Origin: Candidatus Nealsonbacteria bacterium
GTDB lineage: Bacteria; Patescibacteriota; Minisyncoccia; Minisyncoccales; RBG-13-36-15
NCBI GenBank assembly: GCA_011050465.1
Contig: DRFQ01000010.1
Location: 15,514-79,513, forward strand
DNA: 64,000 nucleotides
Reading direction: 5' to 3'
A program made the translations under genes and the position numbers. This document shows, one piece after another, positions 5,088 to 59,185 of this stretch. How positions within the stretch are numbered: position 1 is the first letter of the stretch; every line of letters begins with the position of its first letter. Under the pieces are notes generated by a model. It was given only the letters and a program-made list of their open reading frames with translations. It ran no database searches and was not told where the DNA came from.

Positions 5088-7343
5088 TTATTCTAAATGC
5101 ACTTTTTCTCGGAGCTCTTCTACTCTTTTTTGAAGTAGGGGATATTTTTTTAATGCGGGATCTTGTTCTAATATTTCTTTGGCGGCTTGTCTTGTTTTTT
5201 CAACTAACGATATATCTTTTAAAGAAGACATTACTAAGTCTGGAATTCCCCATTGCCTGGTACCAGAGAAATCTCCCGGTCCCCGAATCTCTAAATCCTT
5301 TTCAGCTAATTTAAATCCATCTTCAGAATCCAATAGAGCCTTTAATCTCTGCTGAGTTTTTTTAGCTGGAGAATCAGTGAATAAAAAACAGAAAGACTGA
5401 AGCTTTGATCTTCCTACTCTTCCTCTAAATTGATGAAGCTGAGCCAATCCGAATCTTTCTGTCCCTTCAATCATCATTATGGTGGCATTGGGAACGTCAA
5501 TTCCCACCTCGATTACCGAGGTTGATATCAAGATATCTGTCTTTTTGTCTTTAAAGTCTTTCATTATTTTTTCTTTTTCTTTTGGAGTCATTTTGCCATA
5601 AAGCTGTTCTACCTTCAGATTGGGGAAAATAGTTTTTGAAAGCTTTTCGTATTCTTCTTTTACTGCTTTGACCTCAGCCCAGCTTAACCTCCCGCCACTT
5701 TTTATGTAATTTGTTTGATCTAATTTATTTTCTTGGGAAGCAGCGGGGGGCTCAATTCTTGGGCAGACAACGAAGGCCTGTCTTCCTTTTTTAACTTCTT
5801 TTTCAATAAAATTATAAATTTTCTTTCTTTCTTTGGGTTTAATTACTTTAGTGATTATTTTTTTTCTTCCTTTTGGTAATTCTGTAATTAAAGATAAATC
5901 TAAATCTCCATAAATAGTTAGGGCTAAGGTGCGGGGGATGGGGGTGGCAGTCATTGATAATAAATGAGGAATAATTTTTTCTTGTTTTTTTTGATTTTTA
6001 CAGAGCTTAGCTCTTTGTTCTACTCCAAAACGATGCTGTTCATCTAAGACGACTAAAGCCAGATTTTTAAATTTCACTTTATCTTGGATTAAAGTATGAG
6101 TGCCGATTAGAAGATCTATTTCTCCTTTGGCCGTTTTTTCTAAAATTTTTTGACGCGAAATTTCTATGGTATCATTTTTTAACTTTTTTGAAATAAATTT
6201 ATCTTCTTTACCGGTCAAAAGACCAATATTCAAATTAAAGTTCCTTAAAAAACGGGATACTTCCTGAAAATGCTGTTTGGTCAAAATTTCAGTCGGCGCC
6301 ATAAAACCTACTTGATAACCAGCTTTCATTACGTTAAGAGCTGCCATTGTAGCTACCACCGTTTTTCCAGAGCCCACATCTCCTTCTAAAAGCCTGTTCA
6401 TTGGCCTTGGTTTTTCTAAGTCTTTTAAAATCTGCCAGGCTGATTTTCTTTGGGTATTTGTTAGCTTAAAAGACAAAGAAGCAACAAACTTTTTAATTAG
6501 AGGAAGATTTAAAGAAATTTGATAGGCCTTTTTCTGAGTTAATTTTATTCTTTCTTTAATCACCAAAAGCTCGATTAAAAAAAGCTCCTCAAAAGAGAAG
6601 CGTTGCTTTGCTTTTTCAGCTAAAGCAATTGAATCTGGAAAATGAACCTGCCAGAGAGCAATTTTTAAATCAAGTAGATTATGTTTTTTTCTAATTCTTT
6701 CCGGCAGAGTTTCTGGAATTGTATTTTTTAAACTACCCAGAAGAGGCTTAATAATAAATCTTAACCATCTTGAACTTAGTCCTTCGGTTTCAGGATAAAC
6801 AGGCACAATTCTGCCGGTATGGACTAAGTTTGTAGTTTGTAGTTTGTGGCCTGCCGCCTCTGGCGTAGCCAGAGGCGAGCCTCGCCAAGGGCGGGTAGTT
6901 CGAAAGATTTTTTCGTAGGTTGGATTGGACAAATAAAGACCTTCCTTTCCAATAACTGCTCTTCCGGCCAGACATACCCAATCTCCCGGCTTAATAACCC
7001 TGACTAGATATGGCTGATTGAACCAAACAACTTTTATTGCTGCACCCCGAACCGAGCCTTGTTTTGGTTCTGGGGCTGCGGTTTTGTCTGAAACAACGGC
7101 GTGTGTTAAAGTCATTCTTTTTTTCCAGGTGCTACTGTTGTTGATTTCTAAGATTTTTCCTTGGATACAGCAAGGTTCGTTTAATTTTATTTCCGAAATT
7201 CTAATTATATTCGAAAAATCCTCATAACGATGAGGAAGATGAAAGAGTAGATCCCTAATTGTTTTAATCCCTATTTTTTTCAATCTTTTTCGGTAAGCCA
7301 GGCCAACATTCGGGATTTTTTCAATAGGAGTGGAAAGAATCAT
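5088..7343 (-). CDS. recG: ATP-dependent DNA helicase RecG
   Basis: 751 aa. Wedge-domain N-terminus, GDVGSGKT (Walker A), VLDEQHRFGV (DEQH box), LSMTATPIPRTL, QLHQFRGRVGR. Carries two GC-rich in-frame insertions (see findings). Confidence 0.9.
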   Translation of the reverse strand: MILSTPIEKIPNVGLAYRKRLKKIGIKTIRDLLFHLPHRYEDFSNIIRISEIKLNEPCCIQGKILEINNSSTWKKRMTLTHAVVSDKTAAPEPKQGSVRGAAIKVVWFNQPYLVRVIKPGDWVCLAGRAVIGKEGLYLSNPTYEKIFRTTRPWRGSPLATPEAAGHKLQTTNLVHTGRIVPVYPETEGLSSRWLRFIIKPLLGSLKNTIPETLPERIRKKHNLLDLKIALWQVHFPDSIALAEKAKQRFSFEELFLIELLVIKERIKLTQKKAYQISLNLPLIKKFVASLSFKLTNTQRKSAWQILKDLEKPRPMNRLLEGDVGSGKTVVATMAALNVMKAGYQVGFMAPTEILTKQHFQEVSRFLRNFNLNIGLLTGKEDKFISKKLKNDTIEISRQKILEKTAKGEIDLLIGTHTLIQDKVKFKNLALVVLDEQHRFGVEQRAKLCKNQKKQEKIIPHLLSMTATPIPRTLALTIYGDLDLSLITELPKGRKKIITKVIKPKERKKIYNFIEKEVKKGRQAFVVCPRIEPPAASQENKLDQTNYIKSGGRLSWAEVKAVKEEYEKLSKTIFPNLKVEQLYGKMTPKEKEKIMKDFKDKKTDILISTSVIEVGIDVPNATIMMIEGTERFGLAQLHQFRGRVGRSKLQSFCFLFTDSPAKKTQQRLKALLDSEDGFKLAEKDLEIRGPGDFSGTRQWGIPDLVMSSLKDISLVEKTRQAAKEILEQDPALKKYPLLQKRVEELREKVHLE

Positions 7344-16388: not shown

Positions 16389-16558
16389 CTCGGTTCTCGC
16401 TTCACCGAGCACTTAACGACTCAACGTTTTAAGTGCTTGGCTTCGCTCGACTTTTCCACAACTTGACTTGATTTAGATATGTTATAGTAAAAAAAGACAT
16501 TAATAAAAGGTCGAGCCAATAAACAATAAACAATAAATAATAAATAATAAAATTGAAA

Positions 16559-17205: not shown

Positions 17206-17237
17206 CAATCAACCCGCCAGCGGCGGGTTGATTTTTT
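17206..17237 (+). terminator. Rho-independent terminator after pilin 1
   Basis: caatcaacccgcc-agcg-gcgggttgatt followed by a T-run. Confidence 0.75.
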
Positions 17238-17837: not shown

Positions 17838-17872
17838 GCAATCAACCCGCCGAAGAGGCGGGTTGATTTTTT
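17838..17872 (+). terminator. Rho-independent terminator after pilin 2 (paralog of 17206-17237)
   Basis: gcaatcaacccgcc-gaagag-gcgggttgatttttt. Confidence 0.75.
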
Positions 17873-18206
17873 CATGTTTATTTCGACACCTTTGATTCCC
17901 CCAATAACCTTAATATAATAATTTTACCGGGAACTGTTCCCGAAAAGTTAGTCTTTTATTTCCCTTTTTTAATTTTTAGAGTATAATTTAATAATGTTTA
18001 GTTCGACAAAAGCGAAGAAAATTTTCCGCGTCGTGCCCACCTACCTTCTCGACGCAAATCAGATAGAACTGACACGCGATAATCATTCTCAAGGTGCCAG
18101 TTTTAAGTATTTCAACGGGCAGGAAGGCGGGCGGGTGAATCCGCATAGCTACCCGCGCCTGCCCCGTAGGGAACTAAAGGTTCTCCTTCGGGGTCAATCC
18201 GCTTCT

Positions 18207-18912: not shown

Positions 18913-19740
18913 ATGGCGCTAAATTTTCTTTTTTACTCCACTATTTTTATTTTTGGCCTAACAACAGGTTCTTTCCTGAATTCGATAATTTATCGCCTCC
19001 AGGCTGGGGAAGGCTTTTTACTTGCCCCGTTAAAATCTCGAGGAGATTTTTTTTCGGGGTTTCAAAGATCCTATTGCCCTCATTGCAAAAGAACTCTCAG
19101 TTGGCAGGATTTAATTCCTCTTTTCAGCTTTTTATTTTTAAAGGGCAAGTGCCGTTATTGTCAGAAAAAAATCTCCTGGCAGTATCCTTTAGTAGAAATA
19201 GCAACTGCGATGCTATTTCTGCTAATTCTCAATTCCCAATTCTCAATTCCCAATTCCCAATTTCTAGATTTTATTTATTTGTTAGTTATTTCTTGTATGT
19301 TGATCATTATTTTTGTCTATGACTTAAAACATTACATCATTCCCGACAAAATAATTTATCCGGCAATAGCCTTAGCCCTAATTTATAATTTCTACCAATT
19401 CGCTATCAACAATCAACAATTAGCAATGAGCAATTTCTTGGCTGCCATATTCGCTTCAGCTTTCTTTTTCTCGGTTGTTCTTATTTCAAAGGGTCGCTGG
19501 ATGGGTTGGGGCGATCCTAAATTAGTCTTTTTTATGGGATTATTGCTTGGTTTCTCCAATATTTTAGTTGCCCTCTTTATAGCTTTTTTATTCGGAGCTA
19601 TAATAGGAATAGGGCTGATCATCTTCAGAAAGAAAACATTCAAGAGCGAAGTTCCTTTTGGGCCGTTCTTAATTACCGGAACCCTTATAGCTTTGTTCTG
19701 GGGCAAAGAAATTATAAACTGGTATTTGCATTTACTCTAG
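18913..19740 (+). CDS. pilD: Prepilin peptidase PilD (A24 family)
   Basis: Multi-pass membrane protein. CPHC...CRYC zinc motif, YDLKHYIIPD and GWGDPKL catalytic Asp contexts. The track ORF starts at TTG 18895; ATG 18913 is preferred. Confidence 0.85.
   Translation: MALNFLFYSTIFIFGLTTGSFLNSIIYRLQAGEGFLLAPLKSRGDFFSGFQRSYCPHCKRTLSWQDLIPLFSFLFLKGKCRYCQKKISWQYPLVEIATAMLFLLILNSQFSIPNSQFLDFIYLLVISCMLIIIFVYDLKHYIIPDKIIYPAIALALIYNFYQFAINNQQLAMSNFLAAIFASAFFFSVVLISKGRWMGWGDPKLVFFMGLLLGFSNILVALFIAFLFGAIIGIGLIIFRKKTFKSEVPFGPFLITGTLIALFWGKEIINWYLHLL
19224..19262 (+). repeat. 14-bp tandem repeat (about 2.5 units of ctcaattcccaatt) inside pilD
   Basis: aattctcaattcccaattctcaattcccaattcccaattt, encoding NSQFSIPNSQF. 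Confidence 0.8.
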
Positions 19741-19795
19741 TAAAAATAGCTAATAGCCAATTGTTAATAGTTAATAGAGAATTAACAATGTAACA

Positions 19796-20386
19796 ATGAA
19801 ACAATGTGGTAATGTAACCCCGAAAAGAAATCAAAGATTTCTAACGGGGCAGGCAACAAATAGAGGTTTTACTCTTATCGAGCTTTTAGTTGTAATTAGT
19901 ATTATTGTTATTTTGACCGGAATAGTTCTTGTTAGTTATAGAGCGGGGGAACAACAACTTGCCCTTCAAAGAGCAGCTAATAAATTAGCTCAAGACATCA
20001 GAAGAGTCCAAGAAATGGCAATGTCAGCAAAAGAATCTCAAAAAATTTTTCCTCCGGGAGTTCCTCTAGGAGGATATGGGATTCATTTAACCAGGGGGGA
20101 AAATCAATATATAATTTATAGTGATGGCGGAAATGAAAAATGGGGTGGCGCAGGAGATTTTATTGAAGAAAATATAGGTTTAGAAAAAGGAGTGTTTATA
20201 AAAAACATTGAGCCTCCTGCAGCTTCTTTTAGTATAAATTTTAAACCCCCTGACCCTATAATTAGGATTGTAGATGCGGCAGGAGTTGATAAAGATAATG
20301 TGGCAATTATCCTCGCCTTAGAAGCTGATTCAAACAAAATTAAAAAAATCAGAGTAAATAAAGCTGGCCGAATTGAGATAGACTAA
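19796..20386 (+). CDS. Minor pilin / pseudopilin (GspH/FimT-like) with a 24-aa leader
   Basis: MKQCGNVTPKRNQRFLTGQATNRG then FTLIELLVVISIIVILTGIVLV. Confidence 0.75.
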   Translation: MKQCGNVTPKRNQRFLTGQATNRGFTLIELLVVISIIVILTGIVLVSYRAGEQQLALQRAANKLAQDIRRVQEMAMSAKESQKIFPPGVPLGGYGIHLTRGENQYIIYSDGGNEKWGGAGDFIEENIGLEKGVFIKNIEPPAASFSINFKPPDPIIRIVDAAGVDKDNVAIILALEADSNKIKKIRVNKAGRIEID

Positions 20387-20438
20387 AGATCATCTGAATA
20401 TATAAACATGTTAAAATGCTGAAATGTTTAATGTTAAA

Positions 20439-20945
20439 ATGAAGAATAAAGGTTTCACCCTTCTTGAGGTCATCATTGCCATTGTTTTGGTTCTTGTGGG
20501 GATAACGGGAACTTTTGTTTTGATTACCAAAACTATGGGAGTTATGGCTATTTCTTCTTCCCGGCTTATTGCAGCCTACTTGTCTCAGGAAGGAATTGAA
20601 ATTGTCAGAAATATTAGAGATACAAATTGGATTGAACAAAGTGCTGGTTCTAATTCTTGGGACGAAGGGTTGACTGGCTGCTCAACAGGCTGTGCAGCAG
20701 ATTATACTTATACAGCGACTGAGGATCCAGATCTATTATTGGTCCCTCCAGAGAGTTTTCTAAAAATTTCAGTTACTGGTATTTATAGCTATAATCCAGC
20801 TGATACCGATACTAAATTCAAAAGAGGAATTACTATTGTGCCAAACGGCTCGGATATTTTGGAAGTTACTGTTTTGGTTGAATGGAAAGAGAAAGGAAAA
20901 ACCTATTCTCATACTGCCCAGGAAAATTTGTACAACTGGAAATAA
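20439..20945 (+). CDS. Minor pilin (PilV-like)
   Basis: MKNKG then FTLLEVIIAIVLVLVGITG. The track ORF starts at 20424 (MFNVK...). Confidence 0.7.
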   Translation: MKNKGFTLLEVIIAIVLVLVGITGTFVLITKTMGVMAISSSRLIAAYLSQEGIEIVRNIRDTNWIEQSAGSNSWDEGLTGCSTGCAADYTYTATEDPDLLLVPPESFLKISVTGIYSYNPADTDTKFKRGITIVPNGSDILEVTVLVEWKEKGKTYSHTAQENLYNWK

Positions 20946-21024
20946 AGATTATTTAAACATCTAAACATTTGATAAACACTAAAATATAAAAATATTTAAA
21001 ATGTTAAAATGCTTAAATGCTAAA

Positions 21025-21558
21025 ATGAAGAGGGGCTTCACCCTCATTGAGCTGATGGTTGCCGTAACCTTTTTCGCCTTAGTTATCGGATCTGCTACTG
21101 GTCTTTTTATTTCAGCTGTCCGTTCCCAGGCTAAAGCTTTAGTTGTCCAGAAACTTTTAGACGAGTCGAGTTATGTTATAGAATATATGAGCCGAGCTTT
21201 AAGGATGGCACAAAAAGATACAGATGGGATGACTTGTCTTACCGCTGTTGGCTCAGGATATAATTATGAAGTTAATGCCACGGGCGATAGTATAAAATTT
21301 ATAAATTATCAAGATATCTGCCAGAAATTTTATTTAGATAACTACCAGCTTAAAGAAAACAAGGGCGGTATCTTAGAACTAACTTCTAATAAGCTGAAAA
21401 TATCTTCACTTCAATTTCATCTCTCAGGAGCTGCTCAGACAGACTCTCTTCAGCCAAGAGCAACTATTTCAATGACAATAAGAAAAGCGGGAGTAACAGG
21501 GCCGGGAATTAAAATCCAGACCACCATTTCCCAGAGAAATTTAGACATCCAACAATAA
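21025..21558 (+). CDS. Minor pilin (PilW-like)
   Basis: MKRG then FTLIELMVAVTFFALVIGS. The track ORF starts at 21001. Confidence 0.7.
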   Translation: MKRGFTLIELMVAVTFFALVIGSATGLFISAVRSQAKALVVQKLLDESSYVIEYMSRALRMAQKDTDGMTCLTAVGSGYNYEVNATGDSIKFINYQDICQKFYLDNYQLKENKGGILELTSNKLKISSLQFHLSGAAQTDSLQPRATISMTIRKAGVTGPGIKIQTTISQRNLDIQQ

Positions 21559-21687
21559 AAATCTCAATTTTCAATGACCAATAAATTAATCAACCCCCCC
21601 AATTCCTAAATTTCTAAAAATAATTGATTATTAAGTCATTGAATAGTCATTGAGATTTGGGCATTGGTCATTTTGAAGATTAAAACA

Positions 21688-22098
21688 ATGAAGCAATGTA
21701 ACAATATAACCCCGAAAAGAAATCAAAGATTTCTAACGGGACAGGTAATGCAGCGAGGTGTTGCTATCTATCTTGCCATAGTAATTATGTTCGTTTTGCT
21801 TGGTATTGGTTTGGGGATAAGCACTCTTTTAGTCGGGCAAATCAGAATAATTAGAGGAATGGGCTATTCAGTAGTTGCTCTTTATGCTGCCGATACCGGA
21901 ATTGAGAGAGTTTTATATGCGATTAGAAAGGAAAATCCACCATATGTTCCTGTCGCTGGCGATGAACCTTTCACTGGTGCTGCTTTAGATAATGGTGCTA
22001 CCTATACAGTAAAGATTATTTCAGCTAATGGGACCCTTACTATTAATTCAATAGGCGTTTATCAAGGAACTAGCCGAGCAATAGAAATTTCCTATTAA
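21688..22098 (+). CDS. PilX-like minor pilin
   Basis: QRGVAIYLAIVIMFVLLGIGLG N-terminal segment. Alternative start at ATG 21748 (MQRG...). The track ORF starts at TTG 21664. Confidence 0.6.
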   Translation: MKQCNNITPKRNQRFLTGQVMQRGVAIYLAIVIMFVLLGIGLGISTLLVGQIRIIRGMGYSVVALYAADTGIERVLYAIRKENPPYVPVAGDEPFTGAALDNGATYTVKIISANGTLTINSIGVYQGTSRAIEISY

Positions 22099-22188: not shown

Positions 22189-24369
22189 ATGCATAAAAAA
22201 GAAGCAAAAAAAAGAATTGAAAAATTAAAAAAACTTATCAATCGTTATCGATACCTATACCACGTTCTTGATCGGCAGGAGATTTCAGACGCTGCCTTGG
22301 ATTCTTTGAAGAAAGAGCTTTTTGATTTGGAGCAAAAATACCCTGAATTTATTACCCTTGATTCCCCGACCCAAAGAATTGGAGGAAAGCCCCTTGAAAA
22401 ATTTAAAAAAGTCAGACACTCTCAGCCAATGCTATCTTTTAATGATGCTTTTTCTGAAAAAGATATGAAAGACTGGCAAGAGAGAATTTCAAAACTTTTA
22501 ACCGGGAAAGAGCAGAAAGAAATAGATTTTTTTTGCGAGTTAAAAATTGATGGTTTGGCTGTCGAGTTGATTTATGAAAAAGGAATTCTAAAAATAGGAT
22601 CGACTCGGGGAGATGGCTTAATTGGTGAAAATGTTACTCAAAATTTAAAGACCATTGAAGCTATTCCCTTGAAACTTCAAGCAAAAAAAGACACAATAAA
22701 AAACCTTAAAAAACTTAACTTCTTACCCTATACCAAGTGCCAGATACCAGATACCATAGTCGTTAGGGGAGAAGTTTTTATTTCAAAAAAAGAGCTTGAA
22801 AAACTAAATAAAGAAAGACAAAAAAAGGGACTGGCTCTTTACGCCAATCCGAGAAATGTGGCAGCAGGTTCCATTCGGCAACTGGATTCTAGGGTTATAG
22901 CCAAAAGGCGTCTTGATTCTTTTGCTTATGATTTAGTCATCGATCTTAGCCGGAACCCCAAAAGAAGGCCTTCGATTTCCTACGGAGCAAGAACACACGA
23001 AGAAGAACATAAAATATTAAAAGCCCTGGGGTTTAAGATTAATCTTCATAACAAATATTGTAAAGATTTATCGGCAGTTTTTGAATTTCATAAGTTTTGG
23101 CAAAAAGAGAGGATAAAAATTCCTTATGAAATTGATGGAATCGTGGTAATAGTTAATTCAAATAAAATTTTTGAGAAATTGGGTGTAGTTGGGAAAGCGC
23201 CAAGGGGATCCATTGCTTTCAAATTTGCTTTGAAACAAGCGACTACCAAAATCGAGGATATAAAAATTCAGGTTGGCAGGACGGGAGCCTTGACTCCGGT
23301 TGCTTGCCTAAAGCCTGTTCAAGTTGGAGGGGTAACAATCTCTCGGGCCACCCTGCATAATGAAGATGAAATAAAAAGGTTGGGAATAAAAATAGGAGAC
23401 ACAGTTATTGTCGGAAGGGCAGGAGATGTTATTCCCGATATTGTCAAAGTTTTACCCGAGCTGAGGACCGGAAAAGAAAAAAGTTTTAAGATGCCCTTAA
23501 AATGCCCTGTTTGTGGTGCAAAAGTGATTCGACCTGAAGAGGAGGTGGTATCTCGTTGTGAAAATCCTAAATGCTTTGCCCAACAAAAAAGATCTCTCTA
23601 TCATTTTATTTCCAAAGGAGCTTTTAATATTGTCGGTTTGGGGCCAAAGATTATTGATAAATTGATTGATGCAGGATTAGTTTCAGATCCAGCCGACATT
23701 TTTAAATTAGAAATAGGAGATATCTTGCCATTGAAAAGCTTGCTCCGTAGGCCGAGCCCTCAACGCCTTGAGCGCTCGGTCCTGCGGGGATTTGCCGAGA
23801 AATCAGCCCAAAATTTAATTAAAGCAATTCAGCCTCGAAAAAAAATTACTCTACCAAGATTTATTTATGCTTTAGGAATTAGGAATGTTGGAGAAGAAAC
23901 CAGCATGGATTTAGCTAGATATTTTGGTTCTTTGGGAAAATTAAAAAAAGCCTCTTTGGTAAGGCTTGAAAATATAATGGACATTGGACCGGTAGTGGCA
24001 AAATCAATTTTCGACTGGTTTCATCAAAAGAGAAATTTGCAATTTCTTCAGAAATTAGAGAGAGTGGGAGTAAAAATAATAGACGAAAGATTAAAGATGG
24101 AAAATGGCAAATTACAAGGATTAACTTTTGTTTTAACCGGTAGCTTAGAAAATATAACTAGAAATGAGGCGAAAGAGAACATCAGAGAACTAGGAGGAGA
24201 AATTTCAGAGTCAGTTTCTCAAAAGACAGATTATGTTGTGGTGGGCAAGGAACCGGGAGCAAAGCATGAAAAGGCAAGAAGGCTGGGAATTAAGACGATG
24301 GGGGAGAAAGAATTCCTTAAATTAATCAAATCAAGCCAAACAGAGGCCCGGCCTTTGTTAACTCAATGA
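22189..24369 (+). CDS. ligA: NAD-dependent DNA ligase LigA
   Basis: 726 aa. CELKIDG adenylation lysine motif, four-Cys zinc finger (CPVCGAKV...CENPKC), HhH region, C-terminal BRCT (FVLTGSL). AGAGGG Shine-Dalgarno-like sequence upstream. Confidence 0.95.
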   Translation: MHKKEAKKRIEKLKKLINRYRYLYHVLDRQEISDAALDSLKKELFDLEQKYPEFITLDSPTQRIGGKPLEKFKKVRHSQPMLSFNDAFSEKDMKDWQERISKLLTGKEQKEIDFFCELKIDGLAVELIYEKGILKIGSTRGDGLIGENVTQNLKTIEAIPLKLQAKKDTIKNLKKLNFLPYTKCQIPDTIVVRGEVFISKKELEKLNKERQKKGLALYANPRNVAAGSIRQLDSRVIAKRRLDSFAYDLVIDLSRNPKRRPSISYGARTHEEEHKILKALGFKINLHNKYCKDLSAVFEFHKFWQKERIKIPYEIDGIVVIVNSNKIFEKLGVVGKAPRGSIAFKFALKQATTKIEDIKIQVGRTGALTPVACLKPVQVGGVTISRATLHNEDEIKRLGIKIGDTVIVGRAGDVIPDIVKVLPELRTGKEKSFKMPLKCPVCGAKVIRPEEEVVSRCENPKCFAQQKRSLYHFISKGAFNIVGLGPKIIDKLIDAGLVSDPADIFKLEIGDILPLKSLLRRPSPQRLERSVLRGFAEKSAQNLIKAIQPRKKITLPRFIYALGIRNVGEETSMDLARYFGSLGKLKKASLVRLENIMDIGPVVAKSIFDWFHQKRNLQFLQKLERVGVKIIDERLKMENGKLQGLTFVLTGSLENITRNEAKENIRELGGEISESVSQKTDYVVVGKEPGAKHEKARRLGIKTMGEKEFLKLIKSSQTEARPLLTQ

Positions 24370-25655: not shown

Positions 25656-26043
25656 ATGAAAATTAGATCATTTACTGATCTCGATGCTTGGCGAGAAGGA
25701 CATAAATTGGTTTTAATGATTTACAATATTGCCAAGCACTTTCCGTCGGAAGAAAAATTTGCTATTATTAATCAAATGCGACGCTGTGTTGTTTCTATCA
25801 CTTCAAACATTGCCGAAGGCTTTGCCCATCAATCTAAAAAAGAGAAAATTCAGTTTTACTCTATAAGCTAAGGGATCAAATACTGAGTTACAAAACCAAC
25901 TTTTAATCGCAAAAGATATAGAATATTTAGAGCGGAGAGATTTTAATAAGATGGCCGATCAATCGACAAAAGTTAGCAAACTTTTGAATGGTCTAATAAA
26001 GTTTTGTAAAAAATCAACCAAAATATCAGATACGAGATACTAA
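25656..26043 (+). pseudogene. Four-helix-bundle protein (23S rRNA intervening-sequence protein family), interrupted by a 1-nt frameshift
   Basis: Frame 0 gives MKIRSFTDLDAWREGHKLVLMIYNIAKHFPSEEKFAIINQMRRCVVSITSNIAEGFAHQSKKEKIQFYSIS then a stop at 25869. The +1 frame continues AKGSNTELQNQLLIAKDIEYLERRDFNKMADQSTKVSKLLNGLIKFCKK to a stop at 26041. Deleting one A near 25866 restores a family-typical protein of about 128 aa. Confidence 0.65.
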
Positions 26044-28222: not shown

Positions 28223-28355
28223 ATTGAAGCAAAAAAAGAGCAACCCCTAGAGATAGTGCCCGAAGAAGAGATAACATCTGGAGAAGAAGTAGAGGAAGAA
28301 TAATCAAGGAAGGGCTGACCCTGCACTTATTTTGTCCTACAGAAACTTGGAGATT

Positions 28356-28387
28356 AACCCTTCACCTTTAGCTAAAGGTGAAGGGTT
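28356..28387. repeat. 28-nt perfect palindrome, copy 1 (cccttcaccttta-gc-taaaggtgaaggg)
   Basis: Second copy at 58841-58868. Each lies downstream of a long + strand gene. Confidence 0.85.
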
Positions 28388-28653
28388 GACAAACTATTTA
28401 AAACGAGTAAACTTAAAAATAGACCATTTGTAATCAAAGGGTATTTTTTATATATTTGATTCAGGTTTTCTCAATTGATTTCTATAAACAATTAAAACTT
28501 TAAACAATTTCCTACCCTAAAAAAAATTAAATTTAGGGATTTTTTGCGTTTTATTCGGCTCTACGAATCTAAACGGATTACGAATATCGACCCTCCGGGG
28601 GAGTCGCTAATGAGACAGCGTAATTCGATAAAATTCGTAACTAGTGAAAAACT

Positions 28654-34900: not shown

Positions 34901-35609
34901 AGGAGAGGTGGTAGAGATTACTCCGGAACGAATTATTAAAATAAGGAAGAAAGGCCAGAAAACCCCACACCAGAACCCCAAAGGAAAGCCTTCGGCTTCC
35001 TACGGGGCAGGCAAGTTCGGCGCGGGGCAGGTAGAAAAGAAACAGAAAAAATCAGTGGCAGAAATAGTTGAATATGAAATTCCTGCTCCAAATCCTATTT
35101 TAATTAACCCAGGCAATGAAGTGAAAATAGGCCAACAACTTTCCGAGGGCAGCATTGATCTAAAAGAGCTTTTTAAATTAACCAACCAAAGAGAAACCCA
35201 GAGATATATCGTTAAAGAAATTCAAAACATTTATGTTTCTCAAGGAGCAATTATTCATGATAAACATATTGAAGTAATAGTTAGACAAATGTTTTCCCGG
35301 GTTAGGATTAAAGACGAAGGAGACAGCGGTTTTTCGGCAGGAGAAGTTGTTGAGAAAGGATACCTGTTTGAGGAAAATCTAAGATTAAGAAAAGAGAACA
35401 AAAAACCTGCTACTTTTCAGCCTATTCTTTTGGGTATTTCAAAGGTTGCCTTAACCACAGATTCATTTTTGTCAGCTGCTTCCTTCCAGGAAACTTCCCG
35501 GGTTTTAATTAAAGCAGCTATTGAGGGCAAAAAAGATAGGTTAAGGGGTCTTAAAGAAAATGTAATTATCGGGAAACTTATTCCAGCCGGTACCGGTTTT
35601 CGAAAATAG
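31968..35609 (+). CDS. rpoC: DNA-directed RNA polymerase subunit beta'
   Basis: 1213 aa. CYCGKYRRIRYKKVVCDKCG zinc motif, NADFDGDQMAVH catalytic motif. Confidence 0.97.
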   Translation: MRVIDIDSIRIKIASPEVILSWSHGEVTKPETINYRTQRTEKDGLFCEKIFGPTKDYECYCGKYRRIRYKKVVCDKCGVEVIKSQVRRERMGHIKLTSPVSHIWFLRGVPSRIGMVLNMPLQQVEKVIYFVAYIITGVSEEARNKVLEEIEKEYKRKMKEVRLKGKKKQSAKLLELKRMRDIAKEELRSIKPLRILSETEYHRLSLKYGEVFEAGSGAEILRKIFEKIDLKKEIKKLKKELETTSSINRGKVLRRLKLFQGMMKAAIRPEWMFLTVLPVLPPDLRPMVQLDGGRYASSDLNDLYRRVINRDNRLKYLLEVSAPEVIVRNERRMLQEAVDALIDNTMRKGTTTQATTGGRRLLKSLADILKGKQGRFRQNLLGKRVDYSGRSVIVVGPELKLYQVGIPKKMALELFKPFVIQKILEKELAYNIRGASRLIEQEIDEVWAMLEEVVKDKLVLLNRAPTLHRLGIQAFQPLLIEGEALRIHPLVCKAFNADFDGDQMAVHILLSQGAQQEARRLILSTVNLLKSATGTPIVTPTQDIVLGCFWITKIEKGARGEGKIFGSQNEAILAYDTKTVDLRARIKVRLGKEFIETSVGRILFNITLPSEIAFVNEEVNGKRLDKIVSLIIEKIGLKDSHPYLDKIKTLGFEIATQAGITWGMDDLIVPKEKKQIISKAEENIERIDKHYQKGLLSREEKSFQVIETWQRAKLEIEKLVPKTLPPLGPVSLIINSGAKGSWAQPIQMTGMKGLVINPMGKILELPVKSSYKEGFDILEYFISTHGARKGTADTALRTATAGYLTRRLIDVAHEVIITEEDCRDDKGITVFKKDAIELGQNFLFKILGRINLQDIKIKGKHPNIKKGEIINWEKAHFIDDSGVEEVSVRSPLSCKTLLGVCGQCYGWDLGQNQEVKLGEAVGIIAAQAIGEPGTQLTMRTFHLGGVVGEGDITLGLPRVEEVFETRSPVRKAIVSTIEGEVVEITPERIIKIRKKGQKTPHQNPKGKPSASYGAGKFGAGQVEKKQKKSVAEIVEYEIPAPNPILINPGNEVKIGQQLSEGSIDLKELFKLTNQRETQRYIVKEIQNIYVSQGAIIHDKHIEVIVRQMFSRVRIKDEGDSGFSAGEVVEKGYLFEENLRLRKENKKPATFQPILLGISKVALTTDSFLSAASFQETSRVLIKAAIEGKKDRLRGLKENVIIGKLIPAGTGFRK

Positions 35610-35652
35610 CTGAAAACCCCGAAGGAATGTTTTCGACATCCTACGGGGCAGA

Positions 35653-35661
35653 TGATATAAT
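35653..35661 (+). promoter_or_regulatory. Extended -10 element (TGaTATAAT) 6 nt upstream of the ftsK GTG
   Basis: Exact TGnTATAAT. Confidence 0.45.
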
Positions 35662-35667
35662 AGAAGC

Positions 35668-37857
35668 GTGAGAAGGAGAAAAGACAAAAAGAAATTTAAG
35701 AAAAACACAGAGAAAAGAAAAAATCATAACCCTCCAATTTTATATAAAAAGACTAAAGCTTGGATTACAGGAATTTTAATGATTTTGGTGGGGGTAATTT
35801 CTTTCTTGAGTTTTTTTAATCAAGCCGGGATAGCTGGAAGGGTATTTTTTGACGGATTTAGCTTTCTGATTGGAAAAAGTATCTTTTTAATCCCACCCCT
35901 TTTCTTGTTGGGTGGGATTTTGTTTTTAAAAAAGAGCCGGCAGAGAATCTATCTACCGATATTGTTGGGAATTTTTATTCTAATATTAGGAACTTCAGGC
36001 ATGATATCGATTTTTCAATTGGTCCAGACAAAGGGGATAGCAGACGGAATTAATCAATTAATCATAAAAGAAGGGGGAATAATGGGTTTTCTAATGGCTT
36101 TGCCGCTAGAAAAAACCTTTGGGGTAGAAGTAACTTTCATTATAAATTTAGCAGTAATCATTATTGGCGGTTTAATCTTGATTCAATTTTTGCTGCCAGA
36201 AAAAGACAAAATAGTCTTCGAAAAAGAACCTTCTTTTTTATCTATTCGGAAAATTTTAACTCCTAAATTTAAGATAAAAGAAATACCTCCCCTGGCTGGG
36301 ACTTCGACCTCTTTTCCGGAAGAAAAAAGAAAGACCCCGGAAATTCTTGTTCAATCTCAAACTCCAGAAAATCTCTTAGCCAAAGATCTGAAAGTTAAAC
36401 CGATCGAAGAAAAGAATAAGATTATTTATCAAAGGCCTCCCCTAGACCTTTTGGAGTCTGACCATGGAAAGCCTAGCCCCGGAGACATTAAATCCAACTC
36501 AGTCGTTATTAAAAAGACTCTTCAAAATTTTGGTATTCAGGTTGAAATGTCAGAAGTCAATATTGGCCCGACCGTAACTCAGTATACTTTTAAACCAGCT
36601 GAAGGAGTGAAACTTTCTCGAATCACGGCCTTAAATAATGATCTATCCTTAGCCTTAGCTTCTCATCCAATCAGAATAGAGGCTCCCATTCCTGGCCGGT
36701 CTTTAGTGGGGATTGAAGTGCCCAACAAAGTAAGGGCTCAGGTTAGGCTGAGACATTTAATTGCTCATCCAAGTTTTCAGAATTCACCCGCCAATCTTCT
36801 TTTGTCCTTAGGCAGAGACGTCGCCGGCAATCCTGTTTTTGCTGATTTGGCTCGGATGCCTCATTTATTAGTCGCTGGTTCTACGGGTACGGGCAAGACC
36901 ATTTGTCTTAATAATTTAATTTCGAGTCTTTTATATCGTAATCCTCCAGAAACCTTAAGATTTATTTTAGTTGATCCAAAAAGAGTAGAGTTTCCTGTCT
37001 ATAATCAACTTCCTCATCTTTTAACTCCGGTAATTTTTAATGTCAATCAAACTATTAATGCTTTAAAGTGGTTGACTAGTGAAATGGAGAGGAGGTTTGA
37101 TGTTTTATCTGAGGCTAGAACTCGAGATATTGCTGTCTATAATGAAATGATGGGACGGGAAGGTCAGACTATGCCTTATATTGTTTTAATTATTGATGAA
37201 TTGGCTGACTTGATGGCGGCTCGTGGTCGAGACATTGAGGCAGGAGTTGTCAGAATAGCCCAAATGGCCAGAGCAGTAGGTATTCATTTGATAGTTGCAA
37301 CCCAGCGGCCATCAGTTGAAGTAATTACCGGGCTGATTAAAGCAAATATTACTTCTCGGATTACTTTTCAGGTAGCTTCTCAAGTTGATTCGAGAACAAT
37401 TCTAGATATGGCCGGAGCCGAAAAGTTATTGGGAGCAGGAGATATGCTTTATATTTCTTCCGATGTTTCTAAACCAAAAAGAATTCAGGCAGCTTATATC
37501 TCAGAAAAAGAAGTCAAAAGAGTGACTAATTGGATCAAGAAAGCAGAGAAACCAAAAGGAGAAATAGTAGAAGATCTAAGCGAAAGCCTGGAAAAGACAT
37601 TAACCTTACCAGGGGAAACAACAGAGACCTTTTCTGAGGAAGGAGAAGACCCTCTCTTTGAAGAAGCAAAAAAAGTAGTTATTGAAGCCAAAAAGGCGTC
37701 AGCTTCCCTGCTACAACGAAGATTAAGGGTAGGATATGCTCGGGCAGCCAGATTAATTGATATGATGGAGGAAAAAGGGATTGTTGGCCCGGGAGAAGGG
37801 GCAAAGCCAAGAGAGGTTTACATTGAGACCGAAGAGGAAGAGCGTTCGGAAATGTGA
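35668..37857 (+). CDS. ftsK: DNA translocase FtsK/SpoIIIE
   Basis: 729 aa. N-terminal TM helices, GSTGTGKT Walker A, IDELADLM Walker B, C-terminal gamma-like winged helix (LLQRRLRVGYARAARLIDMMEEKGIV). GTG start. Confidence 0.9.
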   Translation: MRRRKDKKKFKKNTEKRKNHNPPILYKKTKAWITGILMILVGVISFLSFFNQAGIAGRVFFDGFSFLIGKSIFLIPPLFLLGGILFLKKSRQRIYLPILLGIFILILGTSGMISIFQLVQTKGIADGINQLIIKEGGIMGFLMALPLEKTFGVEVTFIINLAVIIIGGLILIQFLLPEKDKIVFEKEPSFLSIRKILTPKFKIKEIPPLAGTSTSFPEEKRKTPEILVQSQTPENLLAKDLKVKPIEEKNKIIYQRPPLDLLESDHGKPSPGDIKSNSVVIKKTLQNFGIQVEMSEVNIGPTVTQYTFKPAEGVKLSRITALNNDLSLALASHPIRIEAPIPGRSLVGIEVPNKVRAQVRLRHLIAHPSFQNSPANLLLSLGRDVAGNPVFADLARMPHLLVAGSTGTGKTICLNNLISSLLYRNPPETLRFILVDPKRVEFPVYNQLPHLLTPVIFNVNQTINALKWLTSEMERRFDVLSEARTRDIAVYNEMMGREGQTMPYIVLIIDELADLMAARGRDIEAGVVRIAQMARAVGIHLIVATQRPSVEVITGLIKANITSRITFQVASQVDSRTILDMAGAEKLLGAGDMLYISSDVSKPKRIQAAYISEKEVKRVTNWIKKAEKPKGEIVEDLSESLEKTLTLPGETTETFSEEGEDPLFEEAKKVVIEAKKASASLLQRRLRVGYARAARLIDMMEEKGIVGPGEGAKPREVYIETEEEERSEM

Positions 37858-41755: not shown

Positions 41756-41830
41756 ACAGTTATGTTACCCCGTTAGAAGTTCTCTGTCATTTTTTTTGAT
41801 GATTTTATCCTCGCAAAACTTCTGACGGGG

Positions 41831-46376: not shown

Positions 46377-46604
46377 CCCCGCACTAAATTTCGCAAACTG
46401 ATTTTGAAGGTAGCCCGCTTCCCCGAACTATTCCTCGCTTCGCTCGTAAAGTACGGGGCATAGCGTCCAAAAGAGAAGGATGAGGCTACCTGCCCCGTAT
46501 AATCCCGAAGGGATTTATATGGGGTTCGCCACACGCGGGCTACAGAATGTTAAAAATAAAATTCTATATTTAATTATTCATTCCGCGGCGAAATTAGTGC
46601 GGGG
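46377..46604. mobile_element. MITE-like 228-bp non-coding element with 17/18-nt terminal inverted repeats and nested hairpins
   Basis: Left end ccccgcactaaatttcgc (46377-46394), right end gcgaaattagtgcgggg (46588-46604). Inner pairs gtagcccgc/gcgggctac, tacggggca/tgccccgta, aatccc-gaa-gggatt. Confidence 0.55.
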
Positions 46605-58840: not shown

Positions 58841-58868
58841 CCCTTCACCTTTCGCTAAAGGTGAAGGG
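58841..58868. repeat. 28-nt palindrome, copy 2 (cccttcaccttt-cgc-taaaggtgaaggg), directly after the uvrA stop
   Basis: Same arms as 28358-28385. Confidence 0.85.
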
Positions 58869-58885
58869 GCTGATCCCGTAGAGAA

Positions 58886-59027
58886 GTCCCGCACTGAAAG
58901 AACTTTAGTGCGGGACTGCGCCTCCTTCGTCGCTTGTTATTCGAAACCTGCCCCGTAGTGAGCCCCGCACCAGAACGAAGTTCGGTGCGGGACTAGTCCA
59001 GAACCGAGCTCTGCTCTGGTTCTGGGC
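58886..59027. repeat. Cluster of GC-rich hairpin elements
   Basis: gtcccgcac-tgaaagaacttta-gtgcgggac (58886-58916), cctgccccgtag core (58947-58958), bipartite element ccccgcaccagaacgaagttcggtgcgggactagtccagaaccgagctctgctctggttctggg (58963-59027). Confidence 0.8.
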
Positions 59028-59185
59028 TTGTTCTACTGCGAGGTTCTTCTACCGTGATTGACAAATTATTTAAAATAAATTAAGCTTTATAGAGTATTAA
59101 TCTAAACTTTCAATAGTTAACAGTCCTTAAAAGATTTTTAATATTATTTATTATTTACTGTTCACTGCTGTCTGTTTATTAATTT

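What the first reader, a model, noticed from the sequence alone, without database searches (positions are those of the whole stretch)
19818..19849. A superfamily of hairpins with a conserved CCCC(G)...(C)GGGG clamp and covarying inner stems, including inside pilin leader peptides
Many otherwise dissimilar elements share one architecture: CCCC(G), 2-3 nt, a 6-8 bp inner stem of variable sequence with compensatory changes, 2-3 nt, then (C)GGGG.
- ccccgaaaagaaatcaaagatttctaacgggg: 19818-19849, and again at 21710-21740 where the 3' clamp reads cggga
- ccccgttaaaatctcgaggagattttttttcgggg: 19025-19059, in-frame in pilD (PLKSRGDFFSG)
- ccccaaaggaaagccttcggcttcctacgggg: in rpoC
- ccccgaaggaatgttttcgacatcctacgggg: 35617-35648
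- ccccgtataatcccgaagggatttatatgggg: 46493-46524
- ccccgttagaagtt...aacttctgacgggg: 41768-41830
- ccccgaaccgagccttgttttggttctgggg: in recG

Structure is conserved while sequence is not, which points to selection or an insertion mechanism acting on the DNA or RNA fold. The copies at 19818 and 21710 share an identical 34-nt core (taaccccgaaaagaaatcaaagatttctaacggg). They give two minor pilins an unusually long shared leader, MKQC(G/N)N(V/I)TPKRNQRFLTGQ. The 19796 gene has no alternative start after the hairpin, so there the element must be translated.
Basis: partly seen in the sequence, partly recalled or inferred. Interest (0 to 1): 0.62.

Follow-up and report, generated by a model that had tools for sequence, protein, structure and literature searches.

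The report
Tiny hairpin insertion element in Patescibacteria
A 36-base DNA hairpin with a fixed CCCCG/CGGGG base, a CAGG tail and a variable inner stem is scattered through this Nealsonbacteria genome and many other Patescibacteria (CPR), both between genes and in frame inside essential genes; it behaves like a miniature REP-type repeat and I found no published description of it for this group.

Summary
The unit is 36 nt: CCCCG-A-[3 bp]-A bulge-[5 bp]-TTC loop-[5 bp]-[3 bp]-A-CGGGG-CAGG.

- **In the window:** a covariance model finds about 10 copies. They lie in pilin 5' regions, pilD, ligA (two sites), rpoC and intergenic DNA.
- **Elsewhere:** About two thirds of the hit loci are labelled Patescibacteria, from at least 18 candidate phyla. 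The free positions pair in 93% of cells against 72% when shuffled.
- **Insertions:** orthologue comparisons show exact 36 or 39 nt insertions with no target duplication in pilD and ligA.
- **Turnover:** distribution at one ligA site is patchy, and two sister lineages carry different inner-stem alleles there.
- **DNA level:** G·T pairs are no commoner than A·C mismatches, and inverted pairs are always tail to tail.

No Rfam family, paper or flanking transposase matches. My best reading is a new REP/RPE-like palindromic insertion element that is tolerated when translated. Its mobilising enzyme is unknown.

The parts
19818..19853 (+). Focal copy, CCCCGAAAAGAAATCAAAGATTTCTAACGGGG+CAGG. It lies in codons 8-19 of the pilin gene 19796-20386 (leader ...TPKRNQRFLTGQ...).
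   Evidence: CM R1 23.3 bits, E 2.3e-5. The DNA fold gives z = -5.2 on one strand and -5.5 on the other. The L123 orthologue has no hairpin.
21710..21745 (+). Second copy with the same core and a 3' clamp reading CGGGA. It ends 2 nt before ATG 21748 of the PilX-like gene, so it is probably in the 5' UTR.
   Evidence: CM 12.8 bits, E 0.06. The flanks are shared with the 19818 copy. L123 has a different hairpin at the same place.
18158..18193 (-). Near-consensus copy lying antisense to the gene, ending 15 nt upstream of the true start (ATG 18208, MNKGFTLIE) of a pilin gene.
   Evidence: CM 52.9 bits. The N_methyl motif falls at residues 72-96 of the long ORF. Sequence read.
19021..19059 (-). A 39-nt copy inside pilD on the antisense strand, translated as LAPLKSRGDFFSG.
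   Evidence: CM 22.6 bits. L123 pilD reads GGTTTTTTA|TTTCAAAGA at this point, and the window has exactly these 39 nt in between with no duplication.
22956..22991 (+). Decayed copy in ligA site 1 (NPKRRPSISYGA). It is the same allele type as the rpoC copy.
   Evidence: CM 19.9 bits. Of 60 aligned homologues, 58 have the empty site DL|GQK; the exceptions are the near-identical P0001 and P0011, which has NPEGKPSASYGA. The DNA empty site is CAGAA|AACT.
23739..23789 (-). A 51-nt nested variant in ligA site 2. The clamp and outer stem are kept, and the inner stem-loop is replaced by a longer hairpin.
   Evidence: The same site holds canonical 36-nt copies in L123, L125, L126 and L134.
34976..35011 (+). 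Consensus copy in a hypervariable Lys-rich linker of rpoC (NPKGKPSASYGAG). A partial repeat of the 3' end, CGGGGCAGG, follows it.
   Evidence: CM 56.8 bits. It is absent from all 70 aligned RpoC orthologues. Sequence read.
35617..35652 (+). Intergenic copy with tail CAGA, lying 8 nt after the rpoC stop and 16 nt before the ftsK start.
   Evidence: CM 45.4 bits. DNA fold z = -3.9.
46421..46460 (+). Longer variant with tail CATA. It is the left half of a tail-to-tail pair enclosed by an outer stem, GTAGCCCGC...GCGGGCTAC.
   Evidence: CM 23.8 bits. Sequence read.
46489..46524 (-). Right half of the tail-to-tail pair, between tRNA-Leu and the next gene.
   Evidence: CM 39.8 bits..
58947..58987 (-). 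Weak or degenerate copy. The 3' half is intact (CTACGGGGCAGG) and another hairpin is nested in the 5' part.
   Evidence: CM 14.7 bits, E 0.015..
41768..41830 (.). It may be a long-loop variant, but membership is not shown.
   Evidence: It folds at -24.3 kcal/mol but the CM does not detect it at E <= 10.
7045..7075 (.). It is either a decayed copy or a separate small family shared with 58999-59028.
   Evidence: Not detected by the CM. It is similar to CCAGAACCGAGC...GGTTCTGGG at 58999.
19783..19818 (+). Octamer array, TAACAATG x4.5, abutting the focal copy. A similar array at 21684-21710 abuts the second copy.
   Evidence: TRF. Copies in other genomes are 4-7 times enriched next to 6-9 nt periodic repeats.

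Best explanation
These hairpins are copies of a 36-nt palindromic insertion element of the REP/RPE kind. The element is widespread in Patescibacteria, and this window is from a Candidatus Nealsonbacteria genome.

**Anatomy.** A 5-bp clamp (CCCCG/CGGGG) comes first, then an A.A mismatch, a 3-bp stem, a conserved bulged A, a 5-bp stem and a T-N-C loop. On the other strand that loop reads C-GNA-G. An unpaired 3' tag, CAGG, follows.

**Shown.**
- Copies are exact 36 or 39 nt insertions without target duplication.
- They sit in intergenic DNA, 5' UTRs and coding sequence, in both orientations.
- Particular inner-stem alleles, including one carrying a diagnostic internal mismatch, recur at unrelated loci in different organisms.
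- One orthologous site carries different alleles in sister lineages.

**Inferred.**
- The element spreads, or is exchanged between copies, as DNA. This probably goes through a folded single strand that a trans-acting, structure-specific enzyme recognises by clamp, bulge and tag, as RAYT or IS200-type Y1 enzymes recognise REPs.
- The 36-nt length (12 codons) and five open frames out of six let insertions survive inside genes, where they are translated as surface-loop or leader peptides.
- The hairpin is kept after insertion, either by selection or by templated correction between the two arms.

The enzyme has not been identified.
For: **Non-randomness.** The window has 11 clamp hairpins against 0.21 expected.

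**Family and covariation.**
- By record title, about 79 loci are Patescibacteria, 13 are unnamed 'bacterium' and 28 carry other names (my manual tally).
- Hits in high-GC genomes outside the group mostly do not fold.
- The unconstrained inner positions pair in 93% of cells against 72% when shuffled. There are 208 double changes against 70, with 0 of 500 shuffles reaching this, and slide controls give 32-47%.
- The bulged A10 is conserved in 65 of 68 copies although the pattern did not constrain it.

**Insertion.**
- pilD has +39 nt, ligA site 1 +36 nt and ligA site 2 +36 nt relative to empty orthologous DNA, with exact boundaries and no duplication.
- The rpoC copy is absent from 70 orthologues.
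- The ligA site 2 insertion is patchy across an NJ tree of 60 homologues.

**Allele turnover and copy-paste.**
- L126 and L134 ligA are 87.5% identical, but their hairpins differ at 10 of 36 positions, nearly all in paired positions.
- The L126 allele, including its A.A internal mismatch, recurs at two other unrelated loci, L042 and L136.
- The allele GGAGTCGC/GCGACCC occurs in 8 loci, spanning at least 7 different flanking contexts.

**DNA level.**
- G.T/T.G pairs number 11 and A.C/C.A mismatches 13.
- Both strands fold equally well as DNA.
- Coding-sequence copies occur in both orientations, 34 sense and 12 antisense.

**REP-like organisation.**
- By my reading of the hit coordinates, 9 inverted pairs are all tail to tail and none is head to head.
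- Some copies carry a nested longer hairpin in the loop.
- REPs are described as having a 4-nt unpaired tag, subfamilies with alternative complementary stem residues, bulges at the tenth stem position, and intragenic copies in DNA synthesis and repair genes (PMC3733652).
Against: - **No cognate enzyme found.** E. coli RayT and a Patescibacteria Y1_Tnp family were searched in about 1 Mb of hairpin-bearing DNA. Y1_Tnp genes exist in L017, L072, L106, L127 and L134, but they are flanked by other hairpins or inverted repeats.
- **Y1 loci can lack the element.** L130 and L132 carry Y1_Tnp but have no copy of this element in 41 kb.
- **No long version.** No copy with a gene between the two half-sites was found.
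- **No recent burst.** Window copies are all different apart from one local duplication.
- **No recent polymorphism.** Protein clusters at >= 90% identity show no length differences, so recent mobility is not shown.
- **Weak target preference.** Position -1 is A in 60% of sites and +1 is C in 77%. That makes repeated independent insertion at one ligA site hard to explain.
- **Signs compatible with a host function.** There is a sense bias of 74%, enrichment near gene 5' ends, and maintained pairing in orthologous copies.
Confidence: 0.7

Rival explanations
1. It is a cis-acting structured RNA motif, such as an mRNA stabiliser, a processing or protein-binding site, or a translation-initiation signal. 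On this view selection on the transcript maintains it, and the insertions are incidental.
For: - There is a sense-strand bias, 34 to 12, among copies spanned by ORFs.
- Many copies lie within about 40 codons of an ORF's upstream end, or a few nt upstream of start codons. Examples are window 18158 and 21710 and the orthologous series L057, L085, L097 and L106.
- Pairing is maintained with compensatory change among those orthologous copies.
Against: - A quarter of ORF-spanned copies are antisense, including the window pilD copy and ligA site 2.
- Copies sit deep inside rpoC, ligA, SecA-like and aaRS-like genes.
- There is no excess of G.U over A.C pairs, 11 against 13.
- The pilin-region copies are absent from the syntenic relative L123.
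- No Rfam family matches.
Confidence: 0.12
2. It is a host DNA motif rather than a selfish one. A conserved Patescibacteria protein would bind the hairpin or cruciform for replication, recombination, repair or DNA uptake, and copies would be kept because they are useful.
For: - The same clamp, bulge and tag are conserved across at least 18 candidate phyla.
- Pairing is strand-symmetric Watson-Crick.
- The loop on the complementary strand is C-GNA-G, known from my own knowledge as an unusually stable DNA triloop.
- Inverted pairs show a constant tail-to-tail arrangement.
Against: - Density varies greatly between relatives: about 10 per 64 kb here, 1 in 22 kb of syntenic L123, and 0 in 41 kb of L130 plus L132.
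- Copies decay, as at ligA site 1 and in L127.
- Positions are not conserved between genomes.
Confidence: 0.1
3. It is a mini-intron or intervening sequence that is removed from transcripts, so copies in coding sequence and in tRNA-like contexts are not expressed.
For: - Copies lie in essential genes.
- Copies sit exactly at the T-stem/T-loop junction of tRNA-like 3' halves in L024, L074, L076, L079 and L107.
Against: - Every coding-sequence copy examined here is a multiple of 3 nt long (36, 39 or 51) and open in the host frame.
- Both orientations occur in coding sequence.
- The tRNA-like contexts are not complete tRNAs even after the element is removed.
Confidence: 0.02
4. It is chance, or a by-product of Pro (CCN) and Gly (GGN) codon runs in an AT-rich genome.
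For: CCCC occurs 152 times and GGGG 204 times in the window.
Against: - The shuffle test gives 11 observed against a mean of 0.21 and a maximum of 2.
- Copies occur in intergenic DNA and on both strands.
- A CM built from other genomes finds the window copies at E values down to 3e-16.
Confidence: 0.01
5. They are units of a TIGR- or CRISPR-like guide-RNA system. tigRNAs are also 36 nt and also occur in Patescibacteria.
For: The length is the same, and the layout of a conserved edge with a variable interior is similar (PMC12045711).
Against: - Copies are dispersed singles or inverted pairs, not tandem arrays.
- The variable parts are complementary to each other, unlike spacers A and B.
- There are no UG...CCA boxes.
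Confidence: 0.01

Closest known systems
REP / BIME / REPIN elements (GTAG- and CGTC-tagged palindromic repeats), with RAYT transposases
   Same: - A 20-40 nt imperfect palindrome with an unpaired 4-nt tag at one end.
- Subfamilies that differ by complementary stem changes.
- A mismatch and a 1-nt bulge in a 12-13 bp stem, as in GTAG-24.
- Loops that can hold nested hairpins.
- Inverted dimers.
- Occasional copies inside genes, notably DNA synthesis and repair genes (PMC3733652).
   Different: - The tag is CAGG (CCTG on the other strand), not GTAG or CGTC.
- The conserved part is a G+C clamp at the base of the stem.
- About half the copies are spanned by ORFs rather than extragenic.
- The same consensus spans a whole superphylum rather than a genus or order.
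- No RAYT flanked by these hairpins was found.
Rickettsia palindromic elements (RPE)
   Same: They are palindromic repeats inserted in frame into functional protein-coding genes and translated, and they also occur in non-coding DNA (from my own knowledge and PMC3733652).
   Different: From my own knowledge, the RPE-1 type is about 100-150 bp, so it is several times longer, and RPEs are confined to Rickettsia. The element here is 36 nt and is found across Patescibacteria.
IS200/IS605-family ends and their miniature derivatives (single-strand 'peel and paste' by Y1 HUH transposases)
   Same: - Imperfect hairpins with extrahelical bases serve as the recognition element.
- Insertion leaves no target duplication.
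- Y1_Tnp genes are present in Patescibacteria.
   Different: - No fixed 4-5 nt target lies 5' of the insertion, only an A bias.
- There is a single hairpin rather than distinct left and right ends.
- The Y1 genes found have other flanking hairpins.
Integron attC sites
   Same: They are recognised as folded single strands. Structure, extrahelical bases and short conserved end boxes matter, while the interior varies (from my own knowledge).
   Different: attC sites are at least 57 nt, have RYYYAAC/GTTRRRY boxes and sit between cassettes next to an integrase. None of that is seen here.
TIGR arrays (tigRNA, 36 nt)
   Same: The unit length is 36 nt and they occur in Patescibacteria and their phages (PMC12045711).
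   Different: They are tandem arrays with box C/D-like UG...CCA motifs and two spacers that are not self-complementary. This is not the anatomy seen here.

Membership tests
REP (GTAG/CGTC-tagged palindromic repeats) | Small (20-40 bp) imperfect palindrome present in many dispersed copies | tested here: met
   The unit is 36 nt. About 10 copies lie in 64 kb, and 125 CM hits lie in 684 kb of other loci.
REP (GTAG/CGTC-tagged palindromic repeats) | Unpaired terminal tetranucleotide fitting GTAG or CGTC | tested here: not met
   The tag is CAGG, CAAG or CAGA (CCTG on the other strand). A GTA(G/C) motif lies inside the clamp rather than at the end.
REP (GTAG/CGTC-tagged palindromic repeats) | Subfamilies with alternative complementary stem residues | tested here: met
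   All seven variable pairs show 4-6 Watson-Crick or wobble pair types.
REP (GTAG/CGTC-tagged palindromic repeats) | Frequent inverted dimers (BIME/REPIN-like) | tested here: met
   By my reading of the hit coordinates, there are 9 tail-to-tail pairs, 0 head-to-head and 2 tandem. The partners carry different alleles, so they are not REPIN-like long hairpins.
REP (GTAG/CGTC-tagged palindromic repeats) | Predominantly extragenic, downstream of genes | tested here: not met
   46 of 94 copies are spanned by an ORF of at least 150 codons, and many lie at gene 5' ends.
REP with RAYT | A Y1 (RAYT) transposase gene flanked by the same repeats | tested here: not met
   - Y1_Tnp genes in L017, L072, L106, L127, L130, L132 and L134 are flanked by other hairpins or inverted repeats.
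- The CM finds no copy adjacent to them.
- None occurs in the window.
- Whole genomes could not be searched.
Rickettsia palindromic elements | In-frame insertion into functional ORFs | tested here: met
   pilD, ligA (two sites) and rpoC in the window. SecA-like and aaRS-like genes in L095 and L098.
Rickettsia palindromic elements | RPE consensus sequences, length about 100-150 bp, Rickettsia host | tested here: not met
   The element is 36 nt with a different consensus and a Patescibacteria host.
IS200/IS605-type single-strand transposition | Insertion without target-site duplication | tested here: met
   Three pairs of empty and filled sites were compared.
IS200/IS605-type single-strand transposition | Insertion 3' of a fixed tetra- or pentanucleotide target | tested here: inconclusive
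   Only weak preferences were found: A at -1 in 57 of 95 sites and C at +1 in 73 of 95. T-loop-like TYGAA^CC sites recur.
Rfam RNA families | Match to any curated covariance model | tested here: not met
   Only tRNAs were found at gathering threshold in the window. Nothing lay over the hairpins at E <= 1 in 8 loci.
TIGR arrays | Tandem arrays of edge-spacerA-loop-spacerB units next to a Tas (Nop-domain) gene | tested here: not met
   Copies are dispersed single units and the interior is self-complementary.

The most novel reading that the evidence does not exclude
The hairpin may be the cargo-less substrate of an undescribed single-strand DNA insertion or 'homing' system that runs across Patescibacteria. 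A trans-acting enzyme would recognise clamp, bulged base and CAGG tag. It would insert the 36-nt unit at loop-like A-rich sites, such as TYGAA^CC in T-loop-like hairpins and the loops of other hairpins. It would also re-use or overwrite occupied sites. That would explain the same ligA site being filled in scattered lineages and carrying unrelated inner-stem alleles in sister lineages.
Probability: 0.2. Interest if true: 0.8.

Novelty: new variant of a known kind. Interest (0 to 1): 0.62.

Why it matters
- **Scale.** Patescibacteria make up a large share of bacterial diversity and have tiny, densely coding genomes thought to be poor in mobile DNA. A conserved 36-nt element that colonises essential genes (rpoC, ligA, pilD, and genes resembling secA and aminoacyl-tRNA synthetases) in frame would be the smallest such repeat I know of, and one of the most widely distributed.
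- **Annotation.** It explains many lineage-specific 12-13 residue insertions and N-terminal extensions in proteins from this group. It also affects gene-start calling, as in the pilin genes here.
- **Binning.** It gives a sequence marker that could flag mis-binned contigs. Copies labelled Gammaproteobacteria or Elusimicrobia share alleles or flanks with Patescibacteria copies.
- **Open problem.** Which enzyme recognises the clamp, bulge and tag, and how can one site carry different alleles?

Tried and rejected
- **Rfam.** Only tRNAs at gathering threshold on the window. Nothing over the hairpins at E <= 1 on 8 loci.
- **Literature.** Exact-sequence search and three keyword searches found no description. 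TIGR arrays were read and rejected on anatomy.
- **Phage origin.** Only one weak hit in 2.9 million viral contigs.
- **Intrinsic terminator.** Rejected because there is no T-run after the hairpin in the direction of transcription for the window's intergenic copies.
- **tRNA intron.** The T-arm contexts are tRNA 3'-half-like remnants after complete tRNAs. ARAGORN finds no tRNA even with the element removed.
- **Autonomous long version.** Only 4 orphan 3' ends were found, with no matching distant 5' half within 6 kb.
- **Inverted copies flanking a gene.** In L006, L027 and L119 the enclosed genes are ordinary ones such as ribosomal protein S19 and membrane proteins, not transposases.
- **RAYT/Y1 partner.** Y1 genes were found, but they are flanked by other hairpins and show no association.
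- **Recent polymorphism.** Clusters at >= 90% identity for six window proteins show no length differences.
- **Target duplication.** None at the three coding-sequence sites. A 7-nt direct-repeat signal exists in a minority, 7 of 95, and comes from short tandem arrays.
- **Length as evidence of translation.** I tried to show that copies whose length is not a multiple of 3 avoid ORFs. The numbers are too small to say.
Full report
**1. What is in the window**

The window has 37.6% G+C. Exact look-up of its proteins identifies the source as a Candidatus Nealsonbacteria bacterium (Patescibacteria/CPR), recovered from marine-sediment and other metagenomes.

Hairpins of the form CCCC...GGGG, 28-36 nt long and with dG <= -13, number 11 in the window. 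One hundred dinucleotide-preserving shuffles gave a mean of 0.21 and a maximum of 2.

It reads aaCCCC[G/A]AA ... (T/A)ACGGGG followed by CAGG. The unit is therefore 36 nt.

**2. The family outside the window**

I scanned one genome per bacterial and archaeal species with CCCCRAA-N(17-19)-TACGGGGCAGG, which leaves the inner 17-19 bases free.

- By record title, about 79 loci are Patescibacteria, 13 are unnamed 'bacterium' and 28 carry other names (my manual tally).
- The Patescibacteria loci come from at least 18 candidate phyla, including Saccharibacteria, Nomura-, Pacei-, Jackson-, Uhr-, Doudna-, Berkel-, Kaiser-, Sungii-, Jorgensen-, Moran-, Yanofsky-, Nealson-, Komeili- and Azambacteria.
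- Most hits in high-GC genomes outside the group do not fold, so they serve as an internal control for chance matches.

In the 83 distinct 36-nt hits, the structure (((((.(((.(((((...)))))))).))))).... pairs 93% of cells, against 72% after shuffling.

- There are 208 cells with changes on both sides, against 70 +/- 7 in shuffles. None of 500 shuffles reached the observed value.
- Sliding the 3' partner by 1-3 columns drops pairing to 32-47%.
- The bulged A at position 10 is present in 65 of 68 folding copies, and the loop is T-N-C closed by C-G. The pattern imposed neither feature.

A covariance model built from these foreign copies finds about ten copies in the window, at E values from 3e-16 to 0.06.

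No Rfam family covers the hairpins. Neither exact-sequence nor keyword searches of the paper library found a description.

**3. The copies are insertions**

A syntenic relative, L123, has 75% LigA identity and the same pilus operon followed by ligA. It has only one copy in 22 kb. Comparisons with L123 and with wider orthologue sets give the following.

| Site | Empty form | Filled form |
|---|---|---|
| pilD | L123: GGTTTTTTA\|TTTCAAAGA | Window has exactly the 39-nt element between, antisense, read as LAPLKSRGDFFSG |
| ligA site 1 | 58 of 60 aligned homologues: DL\|GQK; DNA CAGAA\|AACT | Window and P0011 carry 12 extra residues (NPKRRPSISYGA, NPEGKPSASYGA) |
| ligA site 2 | PLER\|FAEKS; DNA GAAAG\|ATTTGC | Antisense copy (SLPRRKPKAFLRG) in about ten scattered homologues |
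| rpoC | Absent from 70 orthologues | Window copy sits in a hypervariable linker |

None of the three sites compared at the DNA level has a target duplication.

Across 95 copies the flanks show only weak preferences. Position -1 is A in 60% and position +1 is C in 77%.

About half of 94 foreign copies are spanned by an ORF of at least 150 codons, 34 in sense and 12 antisense. The element is 12 codons long, and five of its six frames are open. The coding-sequence copies examined here are 36, 39 or 51 nt.

**4. Turnover and copy-paste**

ligA site 2 holds different hairpins in different lineages.

- L123, L125 and L134 carry GGAAAGCC-type alleles.
- L126 carries CCAGAGAC/GTCACGG.
- L127 carries a decayed copy.
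- The window carries a 51-nt version in which the inner stem-loop is replaced by a longer hairpin.

L126 and L134 are sister sequences with 87.5% DNA identity across ligA. Their hairpins differ at 10 of 36 positions, nearly all in paired positions.

The L126 allele includes an internal A.A mismatch. The same allele also occurs in two unrelated contexts, L042 and L136. The allele GGAGTCGC/GCGACCC occurs in eight loci, spanning at least seven different flanking contexts.

Specific alleles are therefore copied to new places, or exchanged between copies. They do not arise independently each time.

**5. DNA or RNA**

- Among the variable pairs of folding copies there are 425 Watson-Crick pairs, 11 G.T/T.G pairs and 13 A.C/C.A mismatches. 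RNA-level selection would favour wobble pairs on one strand, and that is not seen.
- Both strands fold equally well as DNA, with z scores of -2 to -5.5.
- The loop on the complementary strand is C-GNA-G, mostly GAA. From my own knowledge this is an unusually stable DNA triloop. I did not test it here.
- Inverted pairs are always tail to tail by my reading of the hit coordinates: 9 against 0 head to head. The window pair is at 46421 and 46489.

**6. Comparison with known elements**

The anatomy matches published REP elements in most respects (PMC3733652). REPs are small palindromes with an unpaired 4-nt tag, subfamilies with complementary stem variants, bulged long stems, nested loops, inverted dimers, and intragenic copies in replication and repair genes.

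It fails two defining REP tests.

- **Tag.** The tag is CAGG/CCTG, not GTAG or CGTC.
- **Transposase.** No Y1 transposase flanked by these hairpins was found.

A conserved Patescibacteria Y1_Tnp family does exist. It scores 36.9 bits against Pfam PF01797 and 40.3 bits against the NCBIfam RAYT model, which is below that model's cut-off of 80. The best 120 of 2734 relatives listed are 71-100% identical to the query, most of them 73-83%. Its genes sit next to rpoD or ligA with their own, different flanking hairpins or inverted repeats. Loci carrying it can lack the element altogether.

I therefore file the hairpin as working like a REP or RPE but not as a member of the GTAG or CGTC superfamilies. 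It is a new variant of a known kind.

**7. The pilin claim**

- **19796 pilin.** The element lies in the leader-coding region and must be translated if the gene is functional. The L123 orthologue has a 9-residue leader and no hairpin.
- **21710 copy.** It ends 2 nt before the ATG at which the gene was called.
- **18158 copy.** It is antisense and ends 15 nt upstream of the real start of a third pilin gene.
- **Relative.** The pilin-region copies are not conserved in the relative L123, which argues against a required regulatory role.

**8. What remains unknown**

- The mobilising or converting enzyme.
- Whether the element is active now. No length polymorphism was seen within protein clusters at >= 90% identity.
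- Why one ligA site is filled repeatedly.
- Why copies often abut 7-8 nt tandem arrays.
- Why copies sit in T-loop-like hairpins of tRNA 3'-half remnants.

Noticed in passing
window 19224-19262; 19783-19818; 20403-20441; 20980-21027; 21684-21710; 16517-16551: There are short tandem arrays with 7-8 nt units.
- AATTCCC x5.6 lies inside the pilD coding sequence (LNSQFSIPNSQF) and is absent from the L123 orthologue.
- TAACAATG and AACAATGT arrays abut the two pilin hairpins.
- TAAAATGT x5-6 runs into the start codons of the other two pilin genes, giving several ATGs in different frames.
   Followed up: partly
L024, L074, L076, L079, L107 (element coordinates): The hairpin lies antisense exactly between the T-stem and T-loop of tRNA 3'-half-like minihelices, for example GGAGG-[element]-TTCAAATCCTCC-AGCGCCCA. 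In L074, L079, L107 and L024 these minihelices follow a complete tRNA gene closely (10-25 nt where I measured the spacer, in L074, L079 and L107). ARAGORN finds no full tRNA even with the element removed.
   Followed up: partly
window 17207-17233 and 17840-17868; 28354-28389 and 58841-58868; 50765-50796, 51150-51180 and 58883-58919; 7045-7075 and 58999-59028: At least four other repeated hairpin families occur in the window: AATCAACCCGCC..., CCCTTCACCTTT..., AGTCCCGC... and GAACCGAGC...GGTTCTGGG. Some are probably terminators. The genome is rich in hairpin repeats generally.
   Followed up: no
LigA orthologues P0010, P0017, P0020, P0024, P0025, P0027, P0028, P0043 (alignment); RpoC orthologues P0145 and P0177: Other short in-frame insertions sit in the same surface loops, such as TPARLASQGEAGG, TLVRPDGSR, IPRSPSATGMAAEGLG and PAFAKASAGK. 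They look like translated palindromes from other hairpin families.
   Followed up: no
L130 2129-2803 and 10001-10678; L132 10001-10681; L072 5859-6551; L017 1872-2642; L106 2185-2880; L127 2559-3011; L134 216-863: A highly conserved Patescibacteria Y1_Tnp (IS200/RAYT-like) family of about 225 aa lies in conserved synteny beside rpoD-dnaG-rpoC-rpoB or beside ligA. Each gene is flanked by its own hairpins (GAGCAAGGACTACCCTTGCTC, GCTAGGTCTTGCCTAGC) or by an inverted repeat (GGGACGTGCACC). In L130 and L132 about 50 nt of the rpoD 3' end is duplicated on both sides.
   Followed up: partly
window about 25656-25871: A 71-aa gene has Pfam hits to 23S_rRNA_IVP and bAvd, the accessory protein of diversity-generating retroelements. 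It lies upstream of a 720-aa TPR protein, and no reverse transcriptase ORF was seen nearby.
   Followed up: no
window 34976-35035; L031 3340-3400; L088 2628-2773: Partial or complete tandem repeats of the element's 3' end (ACGGGGCAGG) or of whole units directly follow some copies. This suggests slippage or repeated insertion at the tail.
   Followed up: no
L077 (labelled Gammaproteobacteria), L078 (labelled Elusimicrobia), L026, L048 and L108 (Omnitrophota), L088 (Cloacimonadota): Well-folding copies occur in bins labelled outside Patescibacteria. L077 has an allele and flanks like the Parcubacteria locus L019, and L078 shares flanks with the Patescibacteria locus L069, so these two may be mis-binned contigs. 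The Omnitrophota copies share their own flanks, which pair to extend the stem.
   Followed up: no
window 35649-35668: Directly after the intergenic copy comes TGATATAAT, a -10-like box, 7 nt before the GTG start of ftsK. In L057, L085, L097 and L106 a copy lies between a TATAAT box and the likely start codon of one conserved gene.
   Followed up: no
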